Origin: a virus
Virus genome (UHGV): UHGV-0252305
DNA: 43,472 nucleotides
Strand: one strand, 5' to 3'
Positions 1,312 to 43,472 of this stretch are shown here, piece by piece. The translations under genes and the position numbers were made by a program. Position 1 is the first letter of the stretch, and each line of letters begins with the position of its first letter. Under the pieces are notes generated by a model. It was not told the DNA's origin, ran no database searches, and worked only from the letters and a program-made list of their open reading frames with translations.

Positions 1312-1328
1312 AGGGGCTTTAAGCCCCT
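1312..1328 (-). terminator. Intrinsic terminator after XRE gene
   Basis: 7-bp GC-rich stem aggggct/agcccct with T-run on - strand. Confidence 0.5.
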
Positions 1329-1534
1329 TCACCTAACGCCAGCCACTTGGCGTCTACTTCCAGAACTTCCGCCAGTTTGAACAGCGTTGCCGGGCGGACG
1401 TCCTGAGTTACTCCAAGTGCCAGTTGGTTAATCGCGCCCTGGGAAACGCCGGTCAGGGCCGCCAAACGGCGCTGGGAGATGCCGAGTTCTTTACGGCGTT
1501 GTTCTACACGGGTGCCTAGTTCAGATGGTTGCAT
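1319..1534 (-). CDS. XRE-family helix-turn-helix transcriptional regulator (Cro/CI-like)
   Basis: 71 aa; HTH signature ISQRRLAALTGVSQGAINQLALG; SD AAGGAG upstream of ATG; divergent from the + strand early operon. Confidence 0.8.
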   Translation of the reverse strand: MQPSELGTRVEQRRKELGISQRRLAALTGVSQGAINQLALGVTQDVRPATLFKLAEVLEVDAKWLALGEGA

Positions 1535-1554
1535 GTCAGTTACTCCTTAGTCAG

Positions 1555-1583
1555 TTGATATGTGAATAGTACCATATTAATTA
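1555..1583 (+). promoter_or_regulatory. Promoter-like site TTGATA-17-TAATTA (tandem with 1599..1627)
   Basis: Shares tgtgAATAGt word with next site; imperfect AATAG-N4-ATATT. Confidence 0.3.
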
Positions 1584-1598
1584 TTTTAGAAAAGCCCA

Positions 1599-1627
1599 TT
1601 GACATGTGAATAGTTCGCTATTATAGT
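1599..1627 (+). promoter_or_regulatory. Sigma70-like early promoter TTGACA-17-TATAGT with AATAG-N4-CTATT inverted repeat
   Basis: Near-consensus -35 and -10 at 17-nt spacing; inverted repeat at 1609..1622; 29 nt upstream of gene 1656. Confidence 0.6.
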
Positions 1628-1655
1628 TAGCCCATACCAAACGAGAGGGGCAGAT

Positions 1656-20282: not shown

Positions 20283-20311
20283 TTGCACACCCCAATATAA
20301 TAGTGTACTAT
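20283..20311 (+). promoter_or_regulatory. Promoter-like site TTGCAC-17-TACTAT with AATAG-N4-CTATT
   Basis: Inverted repeat at 20299..20311; upstream of Imm-like gene and enzyme cassette. Confidence 0.5.
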
Positions 20312-20352
20312 TCACTTACACCAACGATGTTATCCCAAACAGGAGCTACACC

Positions 20353-28886: not shown

Positions 28887-29150
28887 CTATTCCAGAATAT
28901 TCCTCACGTAATCCTGCAACATGAACACTTTCAGCCGCAGCTGCCGTACGCATTCAGCGTTCTGAACGTCGATAGCTAAATCCTCGTCAGCGTCGCTACT
29001 TGGAGCTGCCAGTTTGCACGGAGGCTGCATCATCGTCGTATCCGGTAATGGAATTAGCGTTTGCGACGGCGTGGGACTTGAGCAGGACGCGAGCATCGTC
29101 GAAAGTGCACACGCTGCGACCTGGCGTTTTAATGTATTTAACGACTTCAC
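28887..29150 (-). CDS. Candidate o-spanin (Rz1-like lipoprotein) embedded out of frame in the Rz candidate
   Basis: Lipobox LASC after a signal-like N-terminus; Pro-rich mature region; starts inside 28996..29382 and extends beyond it. Confidence 0.4.
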   Translation of the reverse strand: MKSLNTLKRQVAACALSTMLASCSSPTPSQTLIPLPDTTMMQPPCKLAAPSSDADEDLAIDVQNAECVRQLRLKVFMLQDYVRNILE

Positions 29151-29382
29151 GGGTAATCACCTCTGATTTCGTCTTGCCTTCGTTGTCGGCGGCGGCGGCC
29201 TTTGATTCGTCCTGCTGCTGCCGTTGTGTTTTCTTCGCTAACTCAGCCTGCGCTTTCTGCTGTTGCTGCGAAACGAGATTCGCCCGGCCTTCGCTCCAGC
29301 CGCTGCGATACTGGTAAATGCCGTGGGCGTAAGCCAGGATGATGAAACATGCTCCTGCTACGACAGTTGCTTTAAGATTCAT
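28996..29382 (-). CDS. Candidate i-spanin (Rz-like)
   Basis: N-terminal TM segment followed by Gln/Ala/Lys-rich coiled-coil (QQQKAQAELAKKTQRQQQDESKAAAADNEGK). Confidence 0.45.
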   Translation of the reverse strand: MNLKATVVAGACFIILAYAHGIYQYRSGWSEGRANLVSQQQQKAQAELAKKTQRQQQDESKAAAADNEGKTKSEVITREVVKYIKTPGRSVCTFDDARVLLKSHAVANANSITGYDDDAASVQTGSSK

Positions 29383-29492: not shown

Positions 29493-29647
29493 CAATAGAG
29501 TATGGCCCTTCCGAACGCGTCAGCGTAACTACACTCAGGACTTACGTCCCGCTCCGTTACCTGCCCGCGCCGCGGTCGCTTGTTCATACTTCACAAGCTC
29601 AGGTGGAGCTTAGCACATTTTTGGTGAAAAGTCAACTATTCGAATAG
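29493..29647 (+). repeat. ~150-bp intergenic direct repeat, copy 1
   Basis: Aligns by eye with 41415..41567 at roughly 75% identity; includes 16-bp palindrome AACTATTCGAATAGTT at 29634..29649. Confidence 0.7.
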
Positions 29648-31937: not shown

Positions 31938-32591
31938 ATGAAACTGCAAACATTAGAGTTCCCTTATGGAGAAATCACTTTTGACCGTGAAAACTTTATT
32001 AACGTAAACGAGCTGGTTGACCAGATGAACCGTTGGCGTTTAGACAACGGCATGGGGGCCAGAGAGCTTCGCCAGGTCATGGCAACGGATGGCTTCAAGA
32101 TTTTCAAGGAGGAATGCGAAAAACAACTCGGAATCGAGAATGCCATAAGGGCGACGAAAGGCCGAAACGGTCGCACCTTTGCATGTCTCCATCTGGCAGT
32201 ATATATTGCTGAGCAATACAGCGCCTATTTCCATTTCCTCGTTATCGACCGCTTTATCACACAACGGCAGGTAGAACTACGAAACATTGGCGCGGTGAGC
32301 TTTGTCGAGCTTAACGCTGCCGTTAGTCGAATGATCGAGCGCACGGAGGGAAGAATTGGCCACAGTGGACACTTCATACAGGTGGCTAAAGCGGTAAAGG
32401 AATCCGTAGATATCCGCGACGTAACGGGTTTCGATACATGGGACTCTCAGGATGCGAAGACCAATCAGTTGCGAAGTGACATCCAGAAAGCTCTGGTGAC
32501 GCTTCTTGACATGGAGGCCGTTAATACATGGGGTGAACTGAAAGAGGCGATACCTCGGGTTGTGCGTAAATGTGCGGCTAATATACGTTAA
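31938..32591 (+). CDS. KilA-N domain protein
   Basis: KGRNGRTFACLHLAVYIAEQYSAYFHFLVIDRF fits KilA-N signature; own promoter with palindromic operator; bidirectional terminator downstream. Confidence 0.6.
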   Translation: MKLQTLEFPYGEITFDRENFINVNELVDQMNRWRLDNGMGARELRQVMATDGFKIFKEECEKQLGIENAIRATKGRNGRTFACLHLAVYIAEQYSAYFHFLVIDRFITQRQVELRNIGAVSFVELNAAVSRMIERTEGRIGHSGHFIQVAKAVKESVDIRDVTGFDTWDSQDAKTNQLRSDIQKALVTLLDMEAVNTWGELKEAIPRVVRKCAANIR

Positions 32592-34102: not shown

Positions 34103-35353
34103 TTAAAGTGCGAAAGTCACCGGGATGTTGATTACTGGTTTAACCACCGGCATCTCATAAACTACAGGATAGCCGAGAGCATCAGCCATATGGTCAATGA
34201 CGCCGTCTTTAGCCGGCTCTCCGTTATCGTCGTATGCCTGCTGTTCCAGCGTCTTGGCTATCTCAGGACATAAGTGGTCATTAACCCACAGCTTACCTTT
34301 TTCCAGCGCGGTGTTCACGGCTAAAACGCGGTCTTTAACCGGGGGGTTGGCTGATTTAGCGCGAACATCGAAACCCGCCTGCTGGAGTAATGCAATATCA
34401 GAGATTGACGCCGAGTTTGTCTTACGGTTCTTGCCGCTAGCGTCGGGGTAAACGACGATGCGGTGGCCTTGTGACTTCCACTTCTCGGTAATTACGCGCA
34501 CGGTGTCCGGCGTATCGAACAGGCCCTTCAGTTCTGCAACCGCGTGCCATCCATCTTTACGCTGCACATACACGGCGCTGGCGTTCTTCGTAACGTTGAA
34601 GTCCTGCCCGATGTACAGCGTGTCGCCCGGTTGAATTGTCTCTTTGCTGCGGTGCTTGCGTCGGTCGTATGTGTAATACACGCTTCCGGATGTCAGGTTG
34701 ACAAACTCACCGTTCAGATACGCGTTAATCAGTTGCGCCGGGTAAGTCTCAGTCAGCGAGCTAATGTAATCCGGCGGCAGGAATCTGGCGTTCTCGTGAG
34801 TGGACGCCTGCACCATTGAGTAACTCGGCGTCGGGTTCTCCTTGAACTTGGCGTAAACGAACTTGAACCCTTCCGGAGTCGTGGTGACGGAGATGTGGTT
34901 AATTACCCCCGGGATAACCAGACGCATGCGGGCTACGATTTTGTTCCACGCCAGCTCGGCTTTCTCACGGCTCAATACGTCCAGCTCATCCACGACCGCA
35001 GCCGCGATTTTGAAGCCGACTATCGAGCCGGGGTTATCCATCGAGCGGCAGATAACAGTTCCGAGCACCGTCTTACCGCGAGTGACCACGACTTCTTTGT
35101 CGCCAGATTTAACCAGCACATCGAGGCCGAGGAGGTTAGCCGCTTCCTCGAATGTCGGGTAGAAGATGTCGCGGATAGCCGGGTAGGTGGGGCCGAAGTA
35201 GCCCAGGCGGGTACCCGGGTTCCGGAGCATGAACGTAAGCAGGTCGAGACAGCCGACAAATGTCTTGCCGCTACCGAAGCCTCCGACATAGGCCTTGTAT
35301 TTGTTATCGCAATTCAGGAACAGTGCCTGTGGTGCGGATAGCTGAATACTCAT
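34103..35353 (-). CDS. terL: Terminase large subunit
   Basis: Walker A GGFGSGKTF near N-terminus; 416 aa; followed by portal. Confidence 0.85.
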   Translation of the reverse strand: MSIQLSAPQALFLNCDNKYKAYVGGFGSGKTFVGCLDLLTFMLRNPGTRLGYFGPTYPAIRDIFYPTFEEAANLLGLDVLVKSGDKEVVVTRGKTVLGTVICRSMDNPGSIVGFKIAAAVVDELDVLSREKAELAWNKIVARMRLVIPGVINHISVTTTPEGFKFVYAKFKENPTPSYSMVQASTHENARFLPPDYISSLTETYPAQLINAYLNGEFVNLTSGSVYYTYDRRKHRSKETIQPGDTLYIGQDFNVTKNASAVYVQRKDGWHAVAELKGLFDTPDTVRVITEKWKSQGHRIVVYPDASGKNRKTNSASISDIALLQQAGFDVRAKSANPPVKDRVLAVNTALEKGKLWVNDHLCPEIAKTLEQQAYDDNGEPAKDGVIDHMADALGYPVVYEMPVVKPVINIPVTFAL

Positions 35354-35895
35354 TCCTCTACCTCACCCATGTTCGTTGTTACGATTTTACCTACAGGCTC
35401 CGCAACACTGAAAACAATCTCAGTCGGTGCTGGTTCTTCGGTGGATGCAACCGGTTTCTCTTTGCTGAGGCCCAGTTTAGCCGCGGCAAACGTAGCCGAG
35501 ATGCCCGCAGCCCCTGTCTCAGTGAAGTATGCCTCTTCCAGCGCCTGTGCCGTTTCATAGGCTTCGGCAAATGCGGGAATCTCGCGCAACCACAGCTTAA
35601 TAATCGGGATAGTGACGCCGATGTGTAAGGCAAAGCGGGCCAGTGACGGCGGTTTATCCTGAATCAGTGGGCGTTCGTCACCCTTAGACGTAGGCACAAG
35701 TTCCCATGACGTGCGGTCGAAGAACTCGATTAAAGCGTCGCAATAGTCCGGGTCCCACAGCGCGGCGGAATTACGGGACGATTGATAAAGGCTCTGTTTA
35801 CCGCGCGGTCGTTTACGGCGACGGTTTGCGCTAACAGCTTCTTCATGTGCAGCTTGCACCACCTCTGGCGATGGCTGCTTAAGTTTCAGCTTCAT
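35350..35895 (-). CDS. terS: Terminase small subunit (putative)
   Basis: Overlaps terL start (ATGA-type); ATG at 35895 with SD AAGGGG; position. Confidence 0.55.
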   Translation of the reverse strand: MKLKLKQPSPEVVQAAHEEAVSANRRRKRPRGKQSLYQSSRNSAALWDPDYCDALIEFFDRTSWELVPTSKGDERPLIQDKPPSLARFALHIGVTIPIIKLWLREIPAFAEAYETAQALEEAYFTETGAAGISATFAAAKLGLSKEKPVASTEEPAPTEIVFSVAEPVGKIVTTNMGEVEE

Positions 35896-35987
35896 AGAAT
35901 CCCCTTGCATATGCGTCTGACCATCAGAGCGCACCAGACGCGCCCTACGCGTCTAAATGGATTATATAAGGGGATTGGGCGTGATGT

Positions 35988-36010
35988 ACAGAAAAGCCCT
36001 CCGTAGAGGG
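35988..36010. terminator. Possible terminator upstream of terminase genes
   Basis: Stem gccctc/gagggc, short interrupted T-tract; weak. Confidence 0.3.
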
Positions 36011-36117
36011 CTTGTATCAGTTATATAGGCCGTGTCGTGGTGCTCTTTTACCGTCGCCACCGTAATGGTCGTTAGCTACGGCTATAGCCCATGCGTTGGG
36101 GATGATTAGTAGCCTCA

Positions 36118-36318
36118 TCAGCAAATATCTTCCAGTACGTCGTAATTATCACTTAGATACTGGAACGCATCCCCTCTTTCTACAAACTCATCGCCAATAG
36201 CAAATGTTCCATCAGAGACATCGATTAGGAGGTCATCGCGCCCGATAAACTGGAATACCACCTGGCCTCCATCATCAAGAAGCGTATGCAGCATAAGTAA
36301 TAATAGTTTTTTGCTCAT
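36118..36318 (-). CDS. Hypothetical acidic small protein
   Basis: 66 aa; ATGA coupling with upstream gene. Confidence 0.45.
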   Translation of the reverse strand: MSKKLLLLMLHTLLDDGGQVVFQFIGRDDLLIDVSDGTFAIGDEFVERGDAFQYLSDNYDVLEDIC

Positions 36319-36551
36319 TCTCCACTCTCCTCTTTAGCAATACGTTGCTCAGTTTTAGTGATACCACGGCGCGTGAATAACACCGGGCTAGTCTTAACGT
36401 GCGTCATCAGACGATTGTTATAAATTACGTGGCGCTCACAATCAACGTCTTTACTGTACTTAGCAATCGTCATTTCGTTGATACCGGTTTGTCGGCATGT
36501 CTCCGCCATCGTACCAAATTCTTTAATCAGGTTAGGAATGCTGGTAATCAT
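36315..36551 (-). CDS. Small HTH DNA-binding protein (putative)
   Basis: HTH-like FGTMAETCRQTGINEMTIAKYSK; ATG at 36551 overlaps upstream stop (track start 36575 is GTG). Confidence 0.45.
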   Translation of the reverse strand: MITSIPNLIKEFGTMAETCRQTGINEMTIAKYSKDVDCERHVIYNNRLMTHVKTSPVLFTRRGITKTEQRIAKEESGE

Positions 36552-36718
36552 CCTAAGAAATTCCTCGTTGTCCACATCGCATTCGGATATTTGTTATCGC
36601 GGTCCTGCACCACGGCGACCATGTTACCACGTTGTACCAGGCAGAAGTGACGCTGTTGCTCACCGTTGTAGCGGCGCCAGATTGCTTCTTCGATTGCTGC
36701 GTTGATGTCACTGAACAT
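36548..36718 (-). CDS. Hypothetical small protein (56 aa)
   Basis: Verified codon by codon; ATGA-coupled; not in ORF track. Confidence 0.35.
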   Translation of the reverse strand: MFSDINAAIEEAIWRRYNGEQQRHFCLVQRGNMVAVVQDRDNKYPNAMWTTRNFLG

Positions 36719-36806
36719 TAGTATCTACCCCACAGAAATCCAACCAACAGCCCAACGAAGTAACTAAGACCAACCAGACCGATAACCACCTCGAGACTCA
36801 TACTCT

Positions 36807-36998
36807 CTACCCCACTATCTCATCACCAAGCCACGCCGTTTCTCGTATATCGTCAACCACACAGGCGGCGTGCTCACGACTAATTGCAAAAATGTAGAAG
36901 CTGAACTTCTTCCCGTCGGCGTCGATGTGGTTAACCGAGTAAGGTTTCCACAGGACGCCATCAATAACTACTGGTTCAGGCGCTTTCATGCCCGTCAC
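36807..36998 (-). CDS. Hypothetical protein
   Basis: 63-aa ORF in coupled small-gene chain. Confidence 0.4.
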   Translation of the reverse strand: MTGMKAPEPVVIDGVLWKPYSVNHIDADGKKFSFYIFAISREHAACVVDDIRETAWLGDEIVG

Positions 36999-37176
36999 CC
37001 GGGGCTTTGTTCAGGTTGAAGCGGTTAATCAGTTCACGGCGACGCTCCATAAGGATATCCACCCATTGTGCGTGATGTTTAATCCTAGCATCCAGGACCG
37101 CTATTTCGCTTCTGGCTTCGTTTGTTTTGCCGTTAACCGCCTCTACCATCATCTTTTCGTATTCACGGTCGGTCAT
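36976..37176 (-). CDS. Hypothetical protein
   Basis: 66-aa ORF; ATG overlaps upstream stop (ATGA). Confidence 0.45.
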   Translation of the reverse strand: MTDREYEKMMVEAVNGKTNEARSEIAVLDARIKHHAQWVDILMERRRELINRFNLNKAPGDGHESA

Positions 37177-37331
37177 TCTTTACGCTCTCCCCACATGCGA
37201 TTTAGATACTTGTTCTTGTCCGGCCCCGGGAAACTGTTACGTTTCATCAGTTCCTCGCGTGTCGGGAACGGGGTGTGACTGACTTTACGGCCTACGCGTA
37301 ATGGTTGGCTTACTTGGCCTTGTTCGCTCAT
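37173..37331 (-). CDS. Hypothetical small protein (52 aa)
   Basis: Verified translation; ATGA overlaps at both ends. Confidence 0.35.
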   Translation of the reverse strand: MSEQGQVSQPLRVGRKVSHTPFPTREELMKRNSFPGPDKNKYLNRMWGERKE

Positions 37332-37483
37332 TTCTTCTCTCCTGCATAAGCGGCTTTTAGTGTCTGCATCGCAGCGAACCAGAACGCGTCCGCCGGAATG
37401 CTACTGCTCAGGTTGCTAACGGCGATGCGTGCCATCAGTTGCGCGTCTTTGAATGCTTCGATATCTGTGATTTTCATATTCAT
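37328..37483 (-). CDS. Hypothetical small protein (51 aa)
   Basis: Verified translation; TAATG overlap with upstream gene. Confidence 0.35.
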   Translation of the reverse strand: MNMKITDIEAFKDAQLMARIAVSNLSSSIPADAFWFAAMQTLKAAYAGEKK

Positions 37484-37695
37484 TATCCTGCGTTGAATGA
37501 GCCGAGTACGATGCCGCTTTCTTTTGGTTTCTTGATTTCGGTAACTTTTACGTTATCGTTGAAGTTATTCATGATTATTGGGTCATCCTTAGCACGGACC
37601 AAGCTCAATGCTTCATCTGGGGACTTAGCCCACACCACAAAAGAATCGTATTGATCATAATAACACCAGTCAGCTTCTACTAAATATAATTTCAT
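37483..37695 (-). CDS. Hypothetical protein
   Basis: 70 aa; first gene after promoter-like site at 37729..37757. Confidence 0.5.
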   Translation of the reverse strand: MKLYLVEADWCYYDQYDSFVVWAKSPDEALSLVRAKDDPIIMNNFNDNVKVTEIKKPKESGIVLGSFNAG

Positions 37696-37728
37696 CTTCT
37701 CTACTCCGTTCTCGTTGTCGATGAAGTA

Positions 37729-37757
37729 AATATAATAGGGTCGAGGATAATAGTCAA
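37729..37757 (-). promoter_or_regulatory. Promoter-like site TTGACT-17-TATATT
   Basis: Read on - strand, just downstream of lysis-cassette terminator and upstream of gene 37483..37695. Confidence 0.45.
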
Positions 37758-37780
37758 CTAGTCATCACAGAAAATAGATA

Positions 37781-37810
37781 AAAAAAATCCCGGCTGGGTC
37801 AGGGCCGGGA
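37781..37810 (-). terminator. Intrinsic terminator after lysis cassette
   Basis: Stem tcccggc/gccggga followed on - strand by eight T. Confidence 0.7.
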
Positions 37811-37875
37811 TAAAACTGGAGAGCAGAGGTATGGAACAGGAGGTGATTTAAGTATCGTCGGATTAGTCTCAGGTG

Positions 37876-38361
37876 TCAACCTTTCACCGCGCGCCCAATG
37901 GCCTCAGCCTCTTGCCACGGTTTACCGTCAAATAATGCCAGTCTCCCGGCTGTACGGCGACGCAGGCCAAGTAACGGTTTGCCGTTCTGGTTGATGAACA
38001 GCGCCAGCTTAGCCCGCAGCGTTGCAATATCACCAGAACGCAGTGCCTTACCCGTGCCGGTAGTAGCAGCAATCACACCAGCACCTGCGTTGTATACCAG
38101 GTCGCACACTGCATCGAACTGTGCCTGTGTCAGTGAATGGTGTGCCGTCGCGTCAACCGCAGCTACGGCTTTAGCCATATCGCGATTAAGTAACAGGAGG
38201 CCTTGTCCTGGAGTGATGGTCTGCCCCGCCTTAACATGCGGGCCATAGCTTCCATACCCAATAGTCAGGTACTTCTCATTCGGTGTAGCGCGATACGCGG
38301 TTCCGCGGAATCCCTCGAACGCGGCGGTGAATTTGATGCCATTGTTGCTAATGTTTCTCAT
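37876..38361 (-). CDS. Endolysin, GH24 lysozyme (P22 gp19 / T4 lysozyme-like)
   Basis: ISNNGIKF...FEGFRGTAY...TIGYG and QAQFDAVCDLVYNAG...ALF patterns match P22 gp19-type lysozyme as recalled; follows holin genes. Confidence 0.85.
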   Translation of the reverse strand: MRNISNNGIKFTAAFEGFRGTAYRATPNEKYLTIGYGSYGPHVKAGQTITPGQGLLLLNRDMAKAVAAVDATAHHSLTQAQFDAVCDLVYNAGAGVIAATTGTGKALRSGDIATLRAKLALFINQNGKPLLGLRRRTAGRLALFDGKPWQEAEAIGRAVKG

Positions 38362-38424
38362 AAAGCACCTTCCCGTAATTTATGGTTCGCGAAAACCTCG
38401 CGCAGCTTATCTGCGGTAAGTCCA

Positions 38425-38697
38425 TTATCTGAAATATTTCGAGACACGCTTATGCCCTCCGTACGACAGCCACGCCTGACGAATCTGACGCAGCGCAACT
38501 AATGTGATTAATGTCTCAGGCAGCGTCGGTGACATGCTGCCCTGTAACAGGTGGATACATCCGGCGGCGCAGACAATAGCAGTCAGAATATAAAGCACAC
38601 GCCCGAACAGCCCGTCGTCCACGTGTTCGTTATACACGTTGAACAGGGACGAAGCGCCCATTGAAAGCATTACGACAAACCAGAATAGCTCAGTCAT
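38425..38697 (-). CDS. Second lysis membrane protein (holin or antiholin-like, 2 TM)
   Basis: ATG at 38697 overlaps holin stop; two hydrophobic segments; track N-terminal extension rejected. Confidence 0.4.
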   Translation of the reverse strand: MTELFWFVVMLSMGASSLFNVYNEHVDDGLFGRVLYILTAIVCAAGCIHLLQGSMSPTLPETLITLVALRQIRQAWLSYGGHKRVSKYFR

Positions 38698-38998
38698 GTG
38701 GTCCTCCTGGGCGGGCAATATCGCCGCCCGATACGATGCCAGAAAGGCGGGAATAGATAGGCATCCAGAGAATGGCAATGATGAATCCGAGGCCCGCTAT
38801 TTCGCGTTCACCTGCGATACCGAACCATTGAGCGGCGAGAGGCGCACCGAATACGGCGCACGCAAAGCCAGTGGCGAGAAAACAGAGAGCATCGACAGGG
38901 CCGGTAATAGTGGCTTTGTGTTGCCTTAGTCCGATTACCCCTCCGGCTAGTGCGGCAGCGAGAAGCCACCCCGTCACAGTTTCAGTAAATTTATCCAA
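38690..38998 (-). CDS. Holin-like membrane protein (about 3 TM segments)
   Basis: 102 aa with three hydrophobic segments and charged C-terminus, directly upstream of endolysin. Confidence 0.5.
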   Translation of the reverse strand: MDKFTETVTGWLLAAALAGGVIGLRQHKATITGPVDALCFLATGFACAVFGAPLAAQWFGIAGEREIAGLGFIIAILWMPIYSRLSGIVSGGDIARPGGPHD

Positions 38999-39073
38999 GA
39001 TGAATCCTCCAGGTGCGTATTAAGTATGCAGTAACTGGAGGATAGCACGGTTAGGAATTATCTTAATAACGGT

Positions 39074-39367
39074 TTATTTATGACGCCAGATGTATTGTCG
39101 TCTCTGCGGTTTAGTCGGAATATCATCGTATCCGAGCGATTTCCAGTAATTAAATAACCGATTAGCGATTGCCGCGCGTTCCTGTGTTTTAAACTCTCCT
39201 AGATTCACGGCCTTTCCGTTCTGGAATCCACAGGCGCGGATAGCTTTACGCCGTTCTTGTATCTCTGGGTACAGCACGTTACGGCGACGCTTGTGTATAC
39301 GTGTCTTCGCTCTCGGTGACAGCGGCGCAAGGCCGCTTCGTTTCAGGATGTCAGTTGCTAACGACAT
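39074..39367 (-). CDS. Small basic protein with AP2-like segment
   Basis: NGKAVNLGEFKTQERAAIANRLFNYW; ATG at 39367 overlaps upstream stop (TGATG). Confidence 0.4.
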   Translation of the reverse strand: MSLATDILKRSGLAPLSPRAKTRIHKRRRNVLYPEIQERRKAIRACGFQNGKAVNLGEFKTQERAAIANRLFNYWKSLGYDDIPTKPQRRQYIWRHK

Positions 39368-39555
39368 CACTCCACCCCCTCCACATGTGTAACCGACCCA
39401 CAGTTCGCGCACTCGACGTAATCAGGGTACTGGTCTTTGTATTTCTGTAACTCAGCTTCAAGTTTCGCGTAATCTTCGTAAAGCACTAACACGCCCTCAA
39501 CATCAGGAGTAAACCCGAATATCTGGTCGTAGGTATATCTCTGCACCATAATCAC
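39367..39555 (-). CDS. Hypothetical protein
   Basis: 62-aa ORF, coupled to neighbours. Confidence 0.4.
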   Translation of the reverse strand: MIMVQRYTYDQIFGFTPDVEGVLVLYEDYAKLEAELQKYKDQYPDYVECANCGSVTHVEGVE

Positions 39556-39770
39556 TTCTCCTGTTTACCAAGTCTCTTAGGTGAGCAGATAGCGCGTACC
39601 TCTGAATCGTTGGGCTTGTCACCCTGAAACAGAAAGTGCGCGTTCTCTGCAGCGCGGGCGGCCGACTGGCACGCCTCCATTGAGTAAAACGTTTCCGATG
39701 CTGCGAGTTGCATCTGGCCTGCGGACAATACCCAGATAAATAAGATGCTGGTCATTTCTTTAACCCACAT
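39552..39770 (-). CDS. Hypothetical protein with signal-peptide-like N-terminus
   Basis: MTSILFIWVLSAGQMQLAAS then Cys-containing region. Confidence 0.4.
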   Translation of the reverse strand: MWVKEMTSILFIWVLSAGQMQLAASETFYSMEACQSAARAAENAHFLFQGDKPNDSEVRAICSPKRLGKQEK

Positions 39771-39952
39771 TTAATGCACATACATGGAAACCCGACTCCG
39801 TAAAATTGACATTCGTGTTCACGCTGTTTCTCCTTCCACCGTACCCACATCCGCTGAACCTCTGGTTCAGCGTAGCCATTGTCTTTCCGGGCCGGGGTGA
39901 ACCCAAACCGGCTCCGGAACCATATTTCAAACTGCCGCAAAGTAAGTCCCAC
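39752..39952 (-). CDS. Hypothetical Cys-rich protein
   Basis: 66-aa ORF; overlaps upstream gene by 26 nt. Confidence 0.35.
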   Translation of the reverse strand: MGLTLRQFEIWFRSRFGFTPARKDNGYAEPEVQRMWVRWKEKQREHECQFYGVGFPCMCIKCGLKK

Positions 39953-40112
39953 TTCCTGGTAACTTGAAGCCGTTTTCAGTTCTCACCACGTTCCACTCCA
40001 TCCCGCCGTGGTACACAACCATGTCTTCTAAATCCAGGTCTATAATGGTTCCTACTTTGAAGATGCCTTTAGTCAGTTCACTGTCTCTTTTTGTAACTTT
40101 AACTTCTAACAT
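39927..40112 (-). CDS. Hypothetical protein
   Basis: First gene after promoter-like site at 40145..40173; SD GAGGAAAA. Confidence 0.45.
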   Translation of the reverse strand: MLEVKVTKRDSELTKGIFKVGTIIDLDLEDMVVYHGGMEWNVVRTENGFKLPGSGTYFAAV

Positions 40113-40144
40113 TTCGTTTTCCTCTGTCTCGTCTGTGTAAACGA

Positions 40145-40173
40145 ATAGTAGCCTATTCTATCTTAGTGCGCAA
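40145..40173 (-). promoter_or_regulatory. Promoter-like site TTGCGC-17-TACTAT with AATAG-N4-CTATT
   Basis: Inverted repeat at 40144..40157; upstream of 39927..40112 and the lysis genes. Confidence 0.5.
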
Positions 40174-40530
40174 GTAAATTTTATTGGTGTTTGTATTGTT
40201 GCATCTCCTGCAATAGCCGCTTCGATTGTTGCGTTTGGTGAAATAGAACAAAAATGAGAAAAATGATACGCTGCTGTGTAGCAGCGTAGGCCACTCAGTA
40301 AAATCCCAAACTATTGTTACAGTATAACATAACACTTCTGGCGGCTCGGGTAACGGCATCCAGTGCGTCACGTACTTATCGTAGTTATTCCAGAAAGGCT
40401 TTCTCCCGTCATCAGGAACGATGTAATAATCGTGTTGAACTGCGTTATTTAACGTTTCATACACCAGGAATTCTTTATCCGTATACCCGTTACCCGGCAG
40501 CATCTCACTACACTTAATCCACTCGCCCAT
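40153..40530 (-). CDS. DUF551-like protein; C-terminal ~60 codons of the ORF overlap a terminator and a promoter and may not be genuine
   Basis: N-terminal WIKCSEMLP ... VTHWMPLPEPP fits DUF551 as recalled; ORF continues without stop through hairpin at 40267..40288. Confidence 0.5.
   Translation of the reverse strand: MGEWIKCSEMLPGNGYTDKEFLVYETLNNAVQHDYYIVPDDGRKPFWNNYDKYVTHWMPLPEPPEVLCYTVTIVWDFTEWPTLLHSSVSFFSFLFYFTKRNNRSGYCRRCNNTNTNKIYLRTKIE
40250..40288 (-). terminator. Intrinsic terminator lying inside the 3' part of ORF 40153..40530
   Basis: 8-bp stem tacgctgc/gcagcgta then T-rich tract on - strand. Confidence 0.5.
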
Positions 40531-40533
40531 AAA

Positions 40534-40677
40534 TCACCCCTTATTCATCACAGCTTGCGCACCAGCTTTCCACGCCCGCCACGCGAGACGCGTCTTAACG
40601 TTCAGGTACTCTTTCTTCGAACCCTTATTAACCGGCAGACCCTCGACGATGGCCCACCGTTCGAATGCTTCTCTCAT
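40534..40677 (-). CDS. Hypothetical small protein (47 aa)
   Basis: Verified translation; G-rich SD; not in ORF track. Confidence 0.3.
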   Translation of the reverse strand: MREAFERWAIVEGLPVNKGSKKEYLNVKTRLAWRAWKAGAQAVMNKG

Positions 40678-40793
40678 ACCAACCCCCACAACGCGTGCAC
40701 CGCATAAACGGCGCTGACAATTAAGATAAACGGGTAATTATTCACGGCAACCTCCCTCAGAGTCGTCGGCACTAGCATCATGATTCGATGCCG

Positions 40794-41099
40794 TTAGTGT
40801 TTTACACATTCGTTGTAGGTCCATGTATAAAGTTCCTCGGGTGATTTTTCAGGCAACGCAAATGCGATTTCTGTCGCGTTAAAAGCGGTTGTATTAAGAA
40901 ACTTTTTAACGTCTTTGCTGGTATTCTGTTTAGAGGTAATCTCCAGCAGTCCCATATAAATAGTAGACTGACTTAACCCCATATCGCGTTGAGCGCCAAC
41001 GTTCTTAGTAATAGTTGCGAAGTTATCACACATCCCTTTATTTGCTGCCGTTGCGTTTACCGAAAATAAAATTGCTACTGCTGCTATTAACTTTTTCAT
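40794..41099 (-). CDS. Secreted/periplasmic protein with N-terminal signal peptide
   Basis: MKKLIAAVAILFSVNATA signal-like N-terminus; transcribed from promoter-like site at 41221..41249. Confidence 0.55.
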   Translation of the reverse strand: MKKLIAAVAILFSVNATAANKGMCDNFATITKNVGAQRDMGLSQSTIYMGLLEITSKQNTSKDVKKFLNTTAFNATEIAFALPEKSPEELYTWTYNECVKH

Positions 41100-41220
41100 C
41101 CGGCTTCTCTCTCTCTTAGTTAATTTAGGTTCTGCTTACCGGGCTTATCGACTCTTCGTATGCTCGTCGCCGATACTGACCTTATTAAAGGTTGGCCCCC
41201 TGCCTCGCCCAGATAAGTGA

Positions 41221-41249
41221 ATAGTAACCTATTATGTTGGGGTGTGCAA
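41221..41249 (-). promoter_or_regulatory. Promoter-like site TTGCAC-17-TACTAT with AATAG-N4-CTATT
   Basis: Inverted repeat at 41220..41233; ~120-nt leader to secreted-protein gene 40794..41099. Confidence 0.5.
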
Positions 41250-41414
41250 GAGAATAGTTACGTTGCCGTTGTGATTCTTTCGTTTCTTAAAAGAGTACGC
41301 AACGCAGTGGGTGGGCGTTAGCCCACCCCAGCGGAGTGAAGTACTCTCTACCTTGCTCACGGCAACTATAGAAACTTTTAATTATCAGTGACTTGGATAT
41401 TTAGGCGGGATTAA

Positions 41415-41567
41415 CAATAGACTTTGACCCTTCCGAAAGCGTCAGCGGAACTACACTCAAGTGCCTAATGGCACGCGTTGCGTTCCCTGCCGCTCCGCGG
41501 TCGCTTGCGATATCTCACAAGCTCAGTGAAGCTTAGCATATTTTCAAGTAAAAGTCAATACCAGTAG
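41415..41567 (+). repeat. ~150-bp intergenic direct repeat, copy 2
   Basis: Shares blocks ccttccgaa.gcgtcagcg.aactacactca, ccgcggtcgcttg, tcacaagctcag, agcttagca, aaaagtcaa with copy 1. Confidence 0.7.
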
Positions 41568-41605
41568 CATCTTTTGTATTTTAGTAACTTTGCGTGGTGT
41601 TTTGG

Positions 41606-41634
41606 TTGCTTTTACAAAGTTACCGCCTTATACT
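41606..41634 (+). promoter_or_regulatory. Promoter-like site TTGCTT-17-TATACT
   Basis: Between repeat copy 2 and AlpA-like gene. Confidence 0.35.
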
Positions 41635-41663
41635 TCGATACATATTACACAGGAGAGCGCGAG

Positions 41664-41834
41664 ATGACTATCAATGAAGTTGCAGAATTAATCGGCGTCA
41701 CCCGCCAGACGATCAATAACTGGATTAAGAGTGGAAAGTTTCCTGATTGCAGCGTTAAAGTAATGGGGCGCCGTTTACCAGGAACATTTGACCGTAATAA
41801 AGTTGAAGCGTGGATTAAGGAGAACGTGAAATGA
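41664..41834 (+). CDS. AlpA/excisionase-like small HTH DNA-binding protein
   Basis: MTINEVAELIGVTRQTINNWIKSGKFP; ATG at 41664 with SD AGGAGA. Confidence 0.6.
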   Translation: MTINEVAELIGVTRQTINNWIKSGKFPDCSVKVMGRRLPGTFDRNKVEAWIKENVK

Positions 41835-42178: not shown

Positions 42179-43472
42179 ATGCCCGATGTAATTTTATCCT
42201 ACTCGTGGTCACGCCGCAACGCGCGGGCGGGAAAAAAGGATATAAATGTCAGAACCGCACACACGGCAACACTGGACGACCTGAAAGAGTTAATCCAGCC
42301 GCTCGATGCCGTTCGCGACGGGATTAACCCTAAGACCGCGCCCGGTTATATCACCGCCGCGTGCGACTCAACGCACAGCACCGTAAAAGACCCGGAAACT
42401 GGAGACTTTAAGCAAGCGCGTAAAGGTTTTTTCTACCGCTGCGATGCGTCTGTAAGCAAATCGTCGCTGGCCTATCTGGATTTCGACAGCACAACACCGG
42501 AAGAGTATCAGGAAGCGGTGCGCCTGGTTAAGCGCAGCCGCAGGGCCATGTGCCTCTATACCACGGCATCACATACTGATGAGTCACCGCGCTTTCGCGT
42601 CGTAATGCCACTGGCCCGTCCGGTGGAGGGTGGTGACATCATCCGTGTTCGTCATGGGTTGCTGGAGCACTTCTTCAAAGGCATGGGTGCGGACCGCAGC
42701 GGGTTCACTCTGTCGCAGCCGATGTACCTGCCGCCGGTCGGCGCTACCGTTATCTGGTCGCGCCGCAACGACCTGATCGACCCGAACGAGTTACTGGAAG
42801 GCATCCCAGCCGTTGACGTTAGCAGCGCATCGGATTACCAGATACCGGAAGAACTGCGCACCGCGTTTACAGACGCGTTTGAAGCACTGGCGTTTGAGTA
42901 CGGCGGCGTCATGACGCCGCGCGGCCTTAAGATGCCAGCCACACCGGAACATGCCGAAAACTACAGCGACCCGACACCGCGCCCGGACGACTTCCTGCTG
43001 TGCTTCCCGCGCGAGGGGTATGAAGCGCCAAACGTAACCATGATTCACGACACAGACATTACGGCGACAGAAGGCCTGTCACCGAAAGAGGTGTGGAAGT
43101 ACGCGTGCGATGCGACCGGGCTGCCGTTCAGTGAAGTCGCAGAGGCCATCGGTTGGGGTGCGCGTGAATCTGTCTCATGCAGCCTCGACGACCTGGAAGA
43201 CGACGAGGACTCAGAGGAGGACGAGTTACCAGAACCGGTAAAGGCTGATTTCGTCGTTGAGGGGTACATGCCGTCGGATTGTATCTGGGATATTGTCGGG
43301 GAATCCGGCACGTACAAATCATTCTATACGCTGGGGATGATGTACCTGAGCGCCGCCGGGTACCGGTTTGCGGGGGCTGACACCCAACGTTGCCACCATT
43401 TCTATATTGACGGCGAGGGTGGTGCAGCTACACGAACACGTATTGATGCACTCGCGGCTAAATATGGCGAGG
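42179..43472 (+). CDS. Primase-helicase, N-terminal part (AEP/PrimPol-like), 3'-truncated at window end
   Basis: LDFDS (DxD) motif and TTASHTDE segment suggest primase-polymerase fold; frame open to last base; SD AAGGAAA. Confidence 0.65.
   Translation, partial: MPDVILSYSWSRRNARAGKKDINVRTAHTATLDDLKELIQPLDAVRDGINPKTAPGYITAACDSTHSTVKDPETGDFKQARKGFFYRCDASVSKSSLAYLDFDSTTPEEYQEAVRLVKRSRRAMCLYTTASHTDESPRFRVVMPLARPVEGGDIIRVRHGLLEHFFKGMGADRSGFTLSQPMYLPPVGATVIWSRRNDLIDPNELLEGIPAVDVSSASDYQIPEELRTAFTDAFEALAFEYGGVMTPRGLKMPATPEHAENYSDPTPRPDDFLLCFPREGYEAPNVTMIHDTDITATEGLSPKEVWKYACDATGLPFSEVAEAIGWGARESVSCSLDDLEDDEDSEEDELPEPVKADFVVEGYMPSDCIWDIVGESGTYKSFYTLGMMYLSAAGYRFAGADTQRCHHFYIDGEGGAATRTRIDALAAKYGE

What the first reader, a model, noticed from the sequence alone, without database searches (positions are those of the whole stretch)
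36118..40112. About 17 translationally coupled small genes upstream of terminase, with the lysis cassette embedded in its own operator-bearing operon
Between 40530 and 36118 the - strand carries many 27-125-aa ORFs linked by ATGA or TGATG overlaps, split into at least three units by promoter-like sites (41221..41249, 40145..40173, 37729..37757) and terminators (40250..40288, 37781..37810). Several fall below the ORF-track threshold and were found by manual translation. Holin, a second membrane protein and the endolysin are driven by an AATAG-N4-CTATT-type promoter rather than sitting at the end of the late operon. The small proteins include HTH and AP2-like DNA binders and signal-peptide proteins.
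Basis: partly seen in the sequence, partly recalled or inferred. Interest (0 to 1): 0.4.

Follow-up and report, generated by a model that had tools for sequence, protein, structure and literature searches.

The report
Kagunavirus small-gene operons with lysis cassette
This is the standard accessory-gene and lysis region of a Kagunavirus (K1G/Jersey-type) E. coli phage: three short operons of tightly overlapping small genes ahead of the terminase, real and under selection, but already present and largely annotated in more than a hundred related phage genomes.

Summary
Most junctions overlap by 1 or 4 bases. The sub-60-aa ORFs, including a 27-aa and a 33-aa one, show frame-specific purifying selection in relatives.

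It is ordinary, though. The window is a Kagunavirus (Guernseyvirinae). The same order (small genes, promoter, small genes plus holin/holin/endolysin, terminator, promoter, nin-like genes, terminase) occurs in K1G, Jersey, SETP3 and others. Promoters are annotated at the equivalent sites in Jersey. The AATAG-N4-CTATT motif is strongly non-random (7 exact copies; about 1 expected with one mismatch allowed). It has already been published as a PHIRE "phage promoter" consensus.

Corrections:
- The 125-aa ORF is a 66-aa DUF551 gene with a TGA-to-TTA stop loss.
- "AP2-like" is not supported.
- The lysis genes form the distal half of a unit, not an operon of their own.

Extras found:
- a conserved hairpin that sequesters the holin ribosome-binding site;
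- a relic of a homing endonuclease in front of the endolysin;
- a Gp54 (CapRel-trigger) homologue;
- a candidate 66-nt small RNA;
- a candidate XRE repressor for the palindrome.

The parts
41221..41249 (-). P1, leftward promoter-like site (TTGCAC-17-TACTAT) with an exact palindrome at 41220..41233 over the -10 (class A)
   Evidence: Orthologous site in K1G, XY1, Bas71, BUCT825 and SETP3.
40794..41099 (-). g01, 101 aa, signal-peptide-like N-terminus. Rare accessory gene.
   Evidence: Found in only 2 other phage records; in HSE2, the one checked, it sits at the same position. phrog_2315 at E 1.6e-4.
40674..40745 (-). g02, 23-aa hydrophobic ORF. Doubtful gene.
   Evidence: Partial match only in XY1, where the ORF is not intact. 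No frame preference.
40534..40677 (-). g03, 47 aa, phrog_15836
   Evidence: E 7e-34. Present in 5 of 7 relatives. ATGA overlap with g02.
40153..40530 (-). g04, DUF551 gene. Native length is 66 aa. Here the stop TGA is mutated to TTA at 40332..40330, so the ORF runs on through terminator T1 and promoter P2 to 125 aa.
   Evidence: Pfam DUF551 covers residues 3-65 only. The alignment with K1G, BUCT825 and Bas71 shows TGA at that codon.
40258..40288 (-). T1, intrinsic terminator (9-bp stem, T-run)
   Evidence: Stem invariant in 5 genomes.
40145..40173 (-). P2, promoter-like site (TTGCGC-17-TACTAT) with an exact palindrome at 40144..40157. It is the nearest upstream promoter-like site for the lysis genes.
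   Evidence: Jersey has a promoter annotated at the orthologous site, 39893..39920.
39927..40112 (-). g05, 61 aa, member of Pfam PF25180 (Gp54, phage antiviral trigger protein)
   Evidence: E 1.9e-26, 92 bits against a cut-off of 27. Present only in XY1 and BUCT825 among 7 relatives.
39752..39952 (-). g06, 66 aa, Cys-rich C-terminus, no family. Rare accessory gene; its start is uncertain.
   Evidence: Full length in 4 records. Too few substitutions for a frame test.
39552..39755 (-). g07, 67 aa (72 aa if it starts at 39770), signal-peptide-like, phrog_3766. Core gene.
   Evidence: E 3.8e-36. Present in all 7 relatives. pN/pS 0.04 in frame against more than 4 out of frame.
39367..39549 (-). g08, 60 aa, phrog_29624
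   Evidence: pN/pS 0.17.
39074..39367 (-). g09, 97 aa, phrog_9632.
   Evidence: pN/pS 0.09. No AP2 hit. AF2 pLDDT 70. Foldseek not significant.
39004..39043 (-). Hairpin ATCCTCCAG-N22-CTGGAGGAT. Its 3' arm contains the holin Shine-Dalgarno sequence GGAGG.
   Evidence: Invariant in Kagunaviruses and extended to 13 bp in PK1. Hairpins of different sequence sit at the same place in Jersey/SETP3 and in a Dhillonvirus.
38690..38998 (-). Holin I, 102 aa, TTG start, three hydrophobic segments
   Evidence: phrog_2359 holin, E 6.6e-31. TTG start in all Kagunaviruses, GTG in Jersey/SETP3. pN/pS 0.17.
38425..38697 (-). Holin II, the second membrane protein, 90 aa. Its start overlaps the holin I stop by 8 nt.
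   Evidence: phrog_2508 holin, E 9.6e-35. Junction.
38358..38447 (-). g12, 29-aa relic ORF. It consists of the ancestral endolysin GTG start plus 9 codons, fused to the two ends of a deleted HNH-AP2 homing endonuclease. Its stop overlaps the endolysin ATG (ATGA).
   Evidence: Alignment with BUCT825 (intact endonuclease) and with K1G, XY1 and Bas71 (no insertion). The deletion lies between GGTTTT repeats.
37876..38361 (-). Endolysin, 161 aa, phage lysozyme with no N-terminal membrane segment
   Evidence: PF00959, E 9.7e-26. 76-96% identical in all 7 relatives.
37851..37879 (-). Px, promoter-like site TTGACA-17-GATACT overlapping the endolysin stop codon
   Evidence: Joint-best site of the scan, 10 of 12, tied with P3 and the terS site. 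Both hexamers are conserved in Jersey/SETP3 while the spacer differs.
37781..37846 (-). Candidate small RNA or conserved 3' UTR: a C/U-rich 5' part (AUCACCUCCUG...) followed by terminator T2 (37810..37781)
   Evidence: No ORF and no Rfam hit. Present in 121 phage records, 116 of them at least 95% identical. Terminator stem has one compensatory pair.
37729..37762 (-). P3, promoter-like site TTGACT-17-TATATT, with a one-mismatch palindrome (37749..37762) over the -35 (class C)
   Evidence: The module is nearly identical in 8 genomes. Jersey has a promoter annotated at 42343..42371.
36017..37695 (-). nin-like cluster of ten coupled genes: g14 (70 aa, rare), g15 (51), g16 (52, DUF2737), g17 (66), g18 (60), g19 (27, membrane peptide), g20 (56), g21 (78, NinH-like), g22 (66, rare), g23 (33)
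   Evidence: pN/pS 0.01-0.19 in frame against more than 1 out of frame for g15, g16, g18, g19, g20, g21 and g23.
35991..36013 (-). T3, intrinsic terminator ahead of the terminase genes
   Evidence: -13.9 kcal/mol, 8-bp stem, T-run.
35961..35990 (-). Promoter-like site TGTACA-18-TATAAT ahead of terS (35895..35350) and terL (35353..34103)
   Evidence: terS matches phrog_3064, E 1e-72.
1319..1534 (-). Outside the finding: a 71-aa XRE/Cro-type HTH protein, candidate binder of the palindrome. Two palindromes lie upstream, at 1565..1578 and 1609..1622.
   Evidence: PF01381, E 3.9e-13. DicA-like. Site arrangement conserved. Present in 6 of 6 full genomes.

Best explanation
The region is the conserved leftward accessory-gene and lysis arm of a virulent Kagunavirus (Guernseyvirinae) genome.

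Shown:
- Three co-directional units lie upstream of the terminase: P1 to T1, P2 to T2 and P3 to T3.
- Each unit is a chain of short genes whose stops and starts overlap or abut, so ribosomes can re-initiate from gene to gene.
- Core genes (g07, g09, holin I, holin II, endolysin, g15, g16, g17, g21) are shared with Salmonella Jerseyviruses. Others (g01, g05/Gp54, g06, g14, g22) are sporadic cassettes.
- The holin/holin/lysozyme cassette is the distal half of unit 2.
- The Rz spanin gene lies 9 kb away, among the head genes.

Inferred:
- Host sigma-70 RNA polymerase uses P1, P2 and P3.
- The AATAG-N4-CTATT palindrome present in 10 promoter-like sites is the operator of one phage dimeric regulator. 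The best candidate is the 71-aa XRE protein at 1534..1319, which has two such sites in front of its own gene. This would give coordinated control of the accessory, replication and late units.
- Lysis timing is set mainly after transcription. The holin has a weak TTG start and its ribosome-binding site is locked in a conserved hairpin, so holin accumulates slowly.
- Endolysin translation is coupled through holin II and the relic ORF.
For: Identity and synteny:
- 420 phage records match the region. The best match covers 80% at 91% identity (BUCT825, Kagunavirus). There is no match in E. coli genomes.
- The gene order is the same in K1G, Jersey, SETP3, XY1, Bas71, BUCT825 and Golestan. Jersey has promoters annotated at the P2 and P3 equivalents.

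Coupling: junction table.

Real genes: PHROG or Pfam families for most ORFs. Frame-specific purifying selection, including the 27-aa and 33-aa ORFs.

Lysis proteins: phrog_2359, phrog_2508, PF00959 and Rz phrog_2536 at 29382..28996.

Palindrome:
- Enriched and the top palindrome in the genome.
- Present at orthologous sites in seven genomes of two genera, with conserved arms and a variable centre.
- Sits in three registers relative to the hexamers, which is hard to explain as a polymerase-contact element alone.
- Two sites lie upstream of the XRE gene.

Holin hairpin: three versions of unrelated sequence at the same position in three genera.

Transcription: coarse RNA-seq of Kagunavirus K1B4 places lysozyme, NinH and structural genes in the same temporal class (PMC12645636).
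Against: - There is no transcription start, termination or protein-DNA binding data for any Guernseyvirinae promoter.
- P1 and P2 match the sigma-70 consensus at only 7 of 12 positions and could need an activator.
- The consensus scans are not enriched over shuffles.
- The XRE recognition helix is only partly conserved between genera (QGAINQLALG against QSLITHLATG) although the palindrome arms are identical. The HTH_17 protein at 41664..41834 is better conserved and is an equally early candidate.
- The holin hairpin is invariant within Kagunavirus, so there is no covariation inside the genus. The fold of the whole leader is not better than shuffles (z = -0.8).
- The pN/pS values pool related genomes and rest on few substitutions for g03, g05 and g06.
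Confidence: 0.85

Rival explanations
1. The palindrome is not an operator. It is part of a phage-specific promoter element, read by host polymerase modified or redirected by an unknown phage factor. This is how PHIRE-based papers label it ('phage promoters').
For: The consensus tgAATAGTa-ccTATTat-T is published as seven 'phage promoters' in fBC-Eco01 (PMC9825357). In class A, conservation extends well beyond the palindrome (TTGCRCACCCCAAYAT). In class A the -10 lies inside the right arm. P1 and P2 match sigma-70 poorly.
Against: No RNA polymerase or sigma gene is annotated in any of the seven relatives. The motif sits at three different distances from the -35/-10 hexamers, which a polymerase-contact element would not do. 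Dyad symmetry with a variable 4-bp centre is typical of dimeric HTH operators. Jersey versions have consensus TTGACA -35 boxes.
Confidence: 0.3
2. The three units are not independent. As in lambda, one long transcript from an upstream promoter reads through T1, T2 and T3 by antitermination into terminase and head genes, so the lysis genes are effectively the front of the late operon.
For: All genes from 41099 to about 22780 are co-directional, apart from short opposite-strand inserts such as 31938..32591. The order lysis genes, nin-like genes, terS/terL resembles the lambdoid late region. RNA-seq of K1B4 puts lysozyme, NinH and structural genes in one class. Jerseyvirus and Dhillonvirus have a terminator-like hairpin plus T-run directly before the holin start, which must be read through for any holin to be made.
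Against: No Q- or N-like antiterminator was found among the proteins scanned. Each terminator is followed at once by a conserved promoter-like module. The RNA-seq time points are too coarse, running from 5 to 120 min with a 30-min latent period.
Confidence: 0.2
3. Many of the sub-60-aa ORFs are chance open frames, or untranslated spacers between a few real genes.
For: g02 (23 aa) has no intact counterpart. g06 has too few substitutions to test. g12 is a deletion relic. Several relatives leave some of these ORFs unannotated.
Against: For g07, g08, g09, g15, g16, g18, g19, g20, g21 and g23, in-frame pN/pS is 0.01-0.19, against 0.7 or more, mostly above 1, in the other two frames. Most match PHROG families at E below 1e-17. 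The rare genes recur as intact proteins in other phages, one of them in an Acinetobacter phage.
Confidence: 0.04

Closest known systems
Guernseyvirinae genomes: Escherichia phages K1G, BUCT825, XY1, Golestan and Bas71 (Kagunavirus); Salmonella phages Jersey and SETP3 (Jerseyvirus)
   Same: The order is the same: divergent control region, small genes, promoter, small genes, holin, holin, endolysin, terminator plus promoter, DUF2737/NinH cluster, terS, terL. Spanins lie among the head genes. The palindrome sits at orthologous promoters.
   Different: This genome is a new mosaic. It carries g01, g14 and g22, each found in 2-10 other records, together with the Gp54 homologue. It has a stop-loss in the DUF551 gene. 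It keeps only a 63-nt scar of the homing endonuclease that BUCT825 carries intact.
Lambdoid nin region and late operon (lambda ninB-ninH, Q, S-R-Rz, Nu1-A; P22 nin genes, 13-19-15, 3-2). Comparison drawn from my own knowledge of these phages.
   Same: Runs of small, overlapping, translationally coupled genes, including NinH-like and DUF2737 proteins. Lysis genes lie upstream of, and co-directional with, the terminase genes.
   Different: No Q-type antiterminator was found. The nin-like cluster lies between the lysis genes and the terminase rather than before the lysis genes. Rz/Rz1 are detached. The phage is virulent, with no integrase or CI-length repressor.
PHIRE 'phage promoter' consensus tgAATAGTa-ccTATTat-T of Escherichia phage fBC-Eco01 (PMC9825357)
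   Same: The same motif and the same copy number (seven) in a Kagunavirus-like genome.
   Different: That paper assigns the sites to a 'phage-encoded RNA polymerase' without identifying one. Here the sites fall into three classes according to the register of the palindrome, and a candidate XRE binder is proposed. This is inference only.
Lambda S gene translational control (sdi stem-loop, dual start). Comparison drawn from my own knowledge.
   Same: An RNA stem-loop at the ribosome-binding site of the holin gene, which would limit or tune holin initiation.
   Different: There is no Met-Lys-Met dual-start motif. A single TTG (or GTG) start is used. The hairpin buries the Shine-Dalgarno sequence itself. 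In Jerseyvirus and Dhillonvirus it doubles as a terminator-like element.
Gp54 of phage Bas11, trigger of the CapRel-SJ46 defence protein (PMC11578894)
   Same: g05 belongs to the same Pfam family (PF25180) and has the same size class (61 against 66 aa).
   Different: It comes from a different phage family (Drexlerviridae against Guernseyvirinae). The paper shows that close homologues of Gp54 do not trigger CapRel, so no trigger activity can be inferred here.

Membership tests
Kagunavirus / Guernseyvirinae genome | High nucleotide similarity to member genomes | tested here: met
   The 5.5-kb region is covered 66-80% at 89-92% identity by about 25 listed Kagunavirus records. Whole-genome identity was not computed.
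Kagunavirus / Guernseyvirinae genome | Shared gene order of the leftward arm (small genes, lysis cassette, nin-like genes, terminase), with spanins detached | tested here: met
   Rz at 29382..28996.
Holin-endolysin lysis cassette | Membrane holin(s) adjacent to a muralytic enzyme | tested here: met
   phrog_2359 and phrog_2508 holins. PF00959 lysozyme.
Holin-endolysin lysis cassette | Spanin genes contiguous with holin and endolysin, as in the lambda SRRzRz1 cassette | tested here: not met
   The Rz-like spanin lies at 29382..28996, 8.5 kb from the endolysin. The arrangement is the same in K1G, Jersey and Bas71.
AP2/ERF DNA-binding domain (PF00847), claimed for a small protein (g09) | Sequence match to the AP2 profile | tested here: not met
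   No Pfam family at E<=5. No PDB sequence hit of relevance.
AP2/ERF DNA-binding domain (PF00847), claimed for a small protein (g09) | Three-stranded sheet packed on a helix | tested here: inconclusive
   The AF2 model (pLDDT 70) has two strands plus a helix. Foldseek lists AP2 entries 1gcc, 7et5, 6sy0 and 7wq5 only at E 1.7-5.2, probability at most 0.28.
NinH family (PF06322), for g21 | Score above Pfam's gathering threshold | tested here: inconclusive
   E 5.5e-5 and 23.4 bits, against a cut-off of 29.8. No NCBIfam hit. RefSeq names the 99%-identical Golestan protein 'NinH family'.
Gp54 antiviral-trigger family (PF25180), for g05 | Score above the gathering threshold over the full length | tested here: met
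   92 bits against 27; residues 2-61 align with profile positions 5-65 of 65.
Gp54 antiviral-trigger family (PF25180), for g05 | Activation of CapRel-SJ46 | not testable with these tools
   The paper reports that even close homologues fail to trigger.
Repressor-operator system of Cro/CI type | Dyad-symmetric sites overlapping promoter elements, in more than one copy next to the regulator gene | tested here: met
Repressor-operator system of Cro/CI type | Demonstrated binding of the HTH protein to the sites | not testable with these tools
   No data found in the literature searched.
Intrinsic terminators T1, T2, T3 | GC-rich stem-loop followed by a T-run, conserved in relatives | tested here: met

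The most novel reading that the evidence does not exclude
A strictly virulent siphophage may run its whole programme through one 14-bp operator (AATAG-N4-CTATT). The operator sits in three different registers: over the -10 at accessory and lysis promoters, in the spacer at replication promoters, and over the -35 at late promoters. It would be read by a 71-aa Cro-like XRE protein that also regulates itself. Lysis timing would then be set after transcription, by a holin ribosome-binding-site hairpin conserved in structure but not in sequence across three genera. A 66-nt small RNA carrying a 16S-like anti-Shine-Dalgarno sequence, encoded right after the endolysin gene, may also contribute.
Probability: 0.25. 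Interest if true: 0.45.

Novelty: new member of a known kind. Interest (0 to 1): 0.2.

Why it matters
As described, the finding matters little. It re-describes the standard layout of a well-sampled phage genus used in therapy work.

Its practical value lies in better annotation:
- Many deposited Kagunavirus records omit some of these small genes.
- The 125-aa ORF and the 29-aa ORF would be mis-annotated without the comparison with relatives.

If the inferred regulatory layer were confirmed, Guernseyvirinae would offer a compact, tractable model of temporal control in a virulent phage that has no polymerase of its own. That layer comprises the shared operator, the XRE regulator, the holin hairpin and the candidate small RNA. 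The sporadic small genes, including a Gp54 homologue, are reasonable candidates for anti-defence or defence-trigger screens.

Tried and rejected
- Prophage or host origin: rejected, with no match in 5,426 E. coli genomes.
- Known RNA families and tRNAs in the window: none found.
- Sigma-70 and terminator consensus scans as evidence: not enriched over shuffles, so I relied on conservation instead.
- AP2 assignment for g09: Pfam at E<=5, a PDB sequence search, an AF2 model and Foldseek all gave nothing significant.
- NCBIfam names for the small proteins: none, apart from weak lysozyme and DicA-like matches.
- Alternative frame for g06 (39930..39760): it is open in relatives too, but only the 66-aa frame has a divergent homologue in Golestan. 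This remains unresolved by substitution pattern.
- Target search for the candidate small RNA by RNAduplex over the genome: no convincing target near a start codon.
- An extra promoter in the 75-nt gap before the holin: none found.
- Transcriptome literature: one coarse Kagunavirus RNA-seq study (PMC12645636), without operon or start-site resolution.
- Choosing between the XRE and HTH_17 proteins as the palindrome binder by conservation of the recognition helix: not decisive.

Full report
**What the window is.** The 5.5 kb around the finding matches 420 phage records. The best match is Escherichia phage BUCT825 (Kagunavirus, Guernseyvirinae), at 80% coverage and 91% identity. K1G, XY1, Golestan and the BASEL phages Bas71 and Bas73 follow at 66-78% coverage and 89-92% identity. 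Nothing matches in 5,426 complete E. coli genomes, so this is a virulent phage and not a prophage. The window ends inside the helicase-primase gene and has the size of a whole genome of this genus.

**Checking the observation: genes and junctions.** All the minus-strand ORFs exist. I re-picked starts from ribosome-binding sites and from relatives. The map then runs as follows.
- Unit 1: P1 (41249..41221), g01 to g04, T1 (40288..40267).
- Unit 2: P2 (40173..40145), g05 to g09, holin I, holin II, a 29-aa ORF, endolysin, T2 (37810..37781).
- Unit 3: P3 (37757..37729), g14 to g23, T3 (36013..35991).
- Then a promoter-like site (35990..35961), terS and terL.

Junctions within units are mostly -4 (ATGA) or -1 (TGATG/TAATG), with a few of -8, -14, -23, -26, +2, +3 and +5. 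Two gaps inside units are longer: 48 nt between g01 and g02, and 75 nt before the holin.

**Checking the observation: regulatory sites.** All three terminators fold as GC-rich hairpins followed by T-runs. P1 and P2 match the sigma-70 consensus at only 7 of 12 positions, however. Consensus-type sites are no more frequent here than in shuffled sequence. Their credibility therefore comes from conservation.

**Are the small ORFs genes?** Most match PHROG or Pfam families. I compared the window with seven relatives and counted synonymous and non-synonymous differences in all three frames. The annotated frame gives pN/pS of 0.01-0.19. The other two frames give 0.7 or more, mostly above 1. This holds for g07, g08, g09, both holins, the endolysin, g15, g16, g18, g19 (27 aa), g20, g21 and g23 (33 aa).
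- g03 and g05 show the same trend more weakly.
- g06 has too few differences to judge.
- The 23-aa g02 has no intact counterpart and is doubtful.
- g01, g14 and g22 are absent from the seven relatives. They recur intact in 2, 4 and 10 other phage records. g01 sits at the same genomic position in HSE2, the one record checked, and g14 has a 35%-identical relative in an Acinetobacter phage.

These are genes, and they comprise a conserved core plus sporadic cassettes.

**Is the architecture unusual?** No. K1G, XY1, Bas71, BUCT825, Golestan and the Salmonella phages Jersey and SETP3 all have the same order: small genes, a promoter, more small genes, two holins and an endolysin, a terminator and promoter, a cluster with DUF2737 and NinH-like proteins, then terS and terL. 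The Jersey record annotates promoters at the equivalents of P2 and P3. The spanins lie among the head genes in all of them. In the window the Rz gene is at 29382..28996. Lysis genes that lie upstream of, and co-directional with, the terminase genes are also the lambdoid arrangement (my own knowledge). The position is therefore not odd. The lysis cassette is also not an operon of its own. It is the distal half of unit 2, behind five unrelated small genes.

**The palindrome.** AATAG-N4-CTATT occurs 7 times exactly and 3 times with one mismatch, against 1.18 expected. In an unbiased count it is the commonest 5-N(0-8)-5 palindrome in the genome. Thirty random genomes never exceed 3 copies of any palindrome. 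The sites are orthologous in seven genomes of two genera, with conserved arms and a variable centre. They fall into three classes.
- Class A has the palindrome over the -10: TTGCRC-N11-palindrome. The sites are P1, P2, 20299 and 29718.
- Class B has it in the spacer: TTGACA-N4-palindrome-ATAGT. The sites are 1609, 4158 and 7710, all ahead of replication genes.
- Class C has a one-mismatch copy over the -35. The sites are P3 and 29640..29627, the latter ahead of the spanin and head genes.

The motif is not new. A paper on the Kagunavirus-like phage fBC-Eco01 reports seven PHIRE "phage promoters" with the consensus tgAATAGTa-ccTATTat-T (PMC9825357). That paper attributes them to a phage RNA polymerase, but none is annotated in any relative. 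The three registers and the dyad symmetry fit an operator for a dimeric regulator better. The best candidate I found is a 71-aa XRE/Cro-type protein at 1534..1319 (PF01381, E 3.9e-13). It is transcribed divergently from a class B promoter and has two palindromes upstream of its own start in every Kagunavirus, with degenerate copies in Jersey and SETP3. This is inference. The recognition helix is only partly conserved between genera. The early HTH_17 protein at 41664..41834 is an alternative candidate.

**How the lysis genes are probably controlled.** Holin I starts with TTG in all Kagunaviruses and with GTG in Jersey and SETP3. Its Shine-Dalgarno sequence GGAGG lies in the 3' arm of a 9-bp hairpin (39043..39004) that is invariant in the genus. 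In Salmonella phage PK1, changes on both arms lengthen the stem to 13 bp. Jersey/SETP3 and a Dhillonvirus (44% identical holin) have hairpins of unrelated sequence at the same place. In each the purine-rich segment is again in the 3' arm, and a T-run follows. I read this as a conserved brake on holin initiation. It works like the lambda sdi element, but without a dual start.

Holin II overlaps holin I by 8 nt. Between holin II and the endolysin lies a 63-nt spacer with a 29-aa ORF. Alignment shows it is the scar of an HNH-AP2 homing endonuclease that BUCT825 still carries. The ORF keeps the ancestral endolysin GTG start and 9 codons. It then joins the two ends of the endonuclease across a deletion between GGTTTT repeats. 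It stops in an ATGA overlap with the new endolysin start. The coupling chain is thus preserved.

- The 125-aa ORF is a 66-aa DUF551 gene whose TGA stop is TTA here (40332..40330). The frame runs on through T1 and P2.
- The "AP2-like" protein, presumably g09, has no AP2 match at E<=5. A moderate-confidence model (pLDDT 70) shows a hairpin plus a helix. Foldseek lists AP2 structures only at E 1.7-5. The claim is not supported.
- The HTH claim rests on g21, whose NinH match is below Pfam's cut-off.
- The signal-peptide-like N-termini of g01 and g07 are visible by eye but could not be tested here.

**Other things found.**
- g05, the first gene after P2, belongs to Pfam PF25180, the family of Gp54 of phage Bas11, which triggers the CapRel-SJ46 defence protein. 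Close homologues do not trigger it, so no activity can be inferred.
- The consensus scan's three best sites tie at 10 of 12: P3, the terS site and a fourth site, TTGACA-17-GATACT at 37879..37851. Both hexamers of this fourth site are conserved in Jerseyviruses while the spacer differs.
- That site would give a 66-nt non-coding transcript ending at T2. Its 5' part begins AUCACCUCCU, the anti-Shine-Dalgarno sequence of 16S rRNA (my own knowledge).
- The 100-nt element occurs in 121 records, 116 of them at least 95% identical. The neighbouring holin and endolysin DNA is only 81-93% identical in most relatives (one is 99%).
- In K1G-type genomes a second terminator precedes it, so it is bracketed on both sides.
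- It has no Rfam match and I found no target.

**Verdict.** The region is nevertheless the ordinary, already annotated accessory and lysis arm of a Kagunavirus, in a new mosaic combination. The regulatory reading remains inference and would need the experiments listed. That reading covers the shared operator, the XRE regulator, the holin hairpin and the candidate small RNA.

Noticed in passing
window 37781..37879 (- strand): Candidate 66-nt small RNA. A conserved TTGACA-17-GATACT promoter-like site overlaps the endolysin stop. It is followed by a C/U-rich stretch beginning AUCACCUCCU (identical to the 16S anti-Shine-Dalgarno sequence) and then terminator T2. The element is at least 95% identical in 116 of 121 phage records, more conserved than most of the flanking coding DNA. 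There is no Rfam hit, and no target was found.
   Followed up: partly
window 39004..39043 (- strand); L004 about 41130..41181; L010 about 290..337; L011 about 140..185: A hairpin buries the holin Shine-Dalgarno sequence. The same architecture occurs with unrelated sequences in Kagunavirus, Jerseyvirus and Dhillonvirus. In the last two it is followed by a T-run, so it also looks like a terminator placed directly before the holin start codon.
   Followed up: partly
window 38358..38447 (- strand); L007 14705..15238: A 63-nt scar of an HNH-AP2 homing endonuclease that inserted into the first codons of the endolysin gene. The endonuclease is intact in BUCT825. Here it is deleted between GGTTTT repeats, which leaves a 29-aa ORF that bridges holin II and the endolysin.
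   Followed up: yes
window 40330..40332 (- strand): The stop codon of the 66-aa DUF551 gene is changed from TGA to TTA. The frame runs through terminator T1 and promoter P2 to 125 aa. Transcripts ending at T1 would lack a stop codon. A sequencing error is not excluded.
   Followed up: yes
window 39927..40112 (- strand): A 61-aa protein of Pfam PF25180 (Gp54, the CapRel-SJ46 trigger of phage Bas11) is the first gene after P2. It is present in only 2 of 7 relatives.
   Followed up: partly
window 1319..1632: A miniature immunity-like region in a virulent phage. A 71-aa XRE/DicA-like HTH gene (1534..1319, - strand) is divergent from a replication-gene promoter, with two palindromes 44 bp apart between them (1565..1578 and 1609..1622). 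The arrangement is conserved in all Kagunaviruses checked.
   Followed up: partly
window 29627..29640 and 28996..29382 (- strand): The Rz-like spanin gene lies 8.5 kb from the holin and endolysin genes, among the head genes. It sits behind a TTGACT-17-TAAGCT promoter-like site whose -35 overlaps a one-mismatch palindrome. This is the same design as P3.
   Followed up: partly
window 41100..41664: An unusually long (about 560 bp) divergent intergenic region between the leftward and rightward early genes. It contains several GC-rich hairpins (for example GGGTGGGC-GTTA-GCCCACCC at 41309..41328) and a second minus-strand TTGACT-17-TAAGCT site at 41555..41527. It could be an origin or a non-coding RNA region. 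It was not analysed.
   Followed up: no
window 20299..20312: The class A site between the superinfection-immunity/exonuclease genes (+ strand) and the tail-chaperone gene (- strand) also reads like a class B-type promoter on the opposite strand (TTGGTG-N6-palindrome). It may therefore be a bidirectional control point for the tail operon.
   Followed up: no
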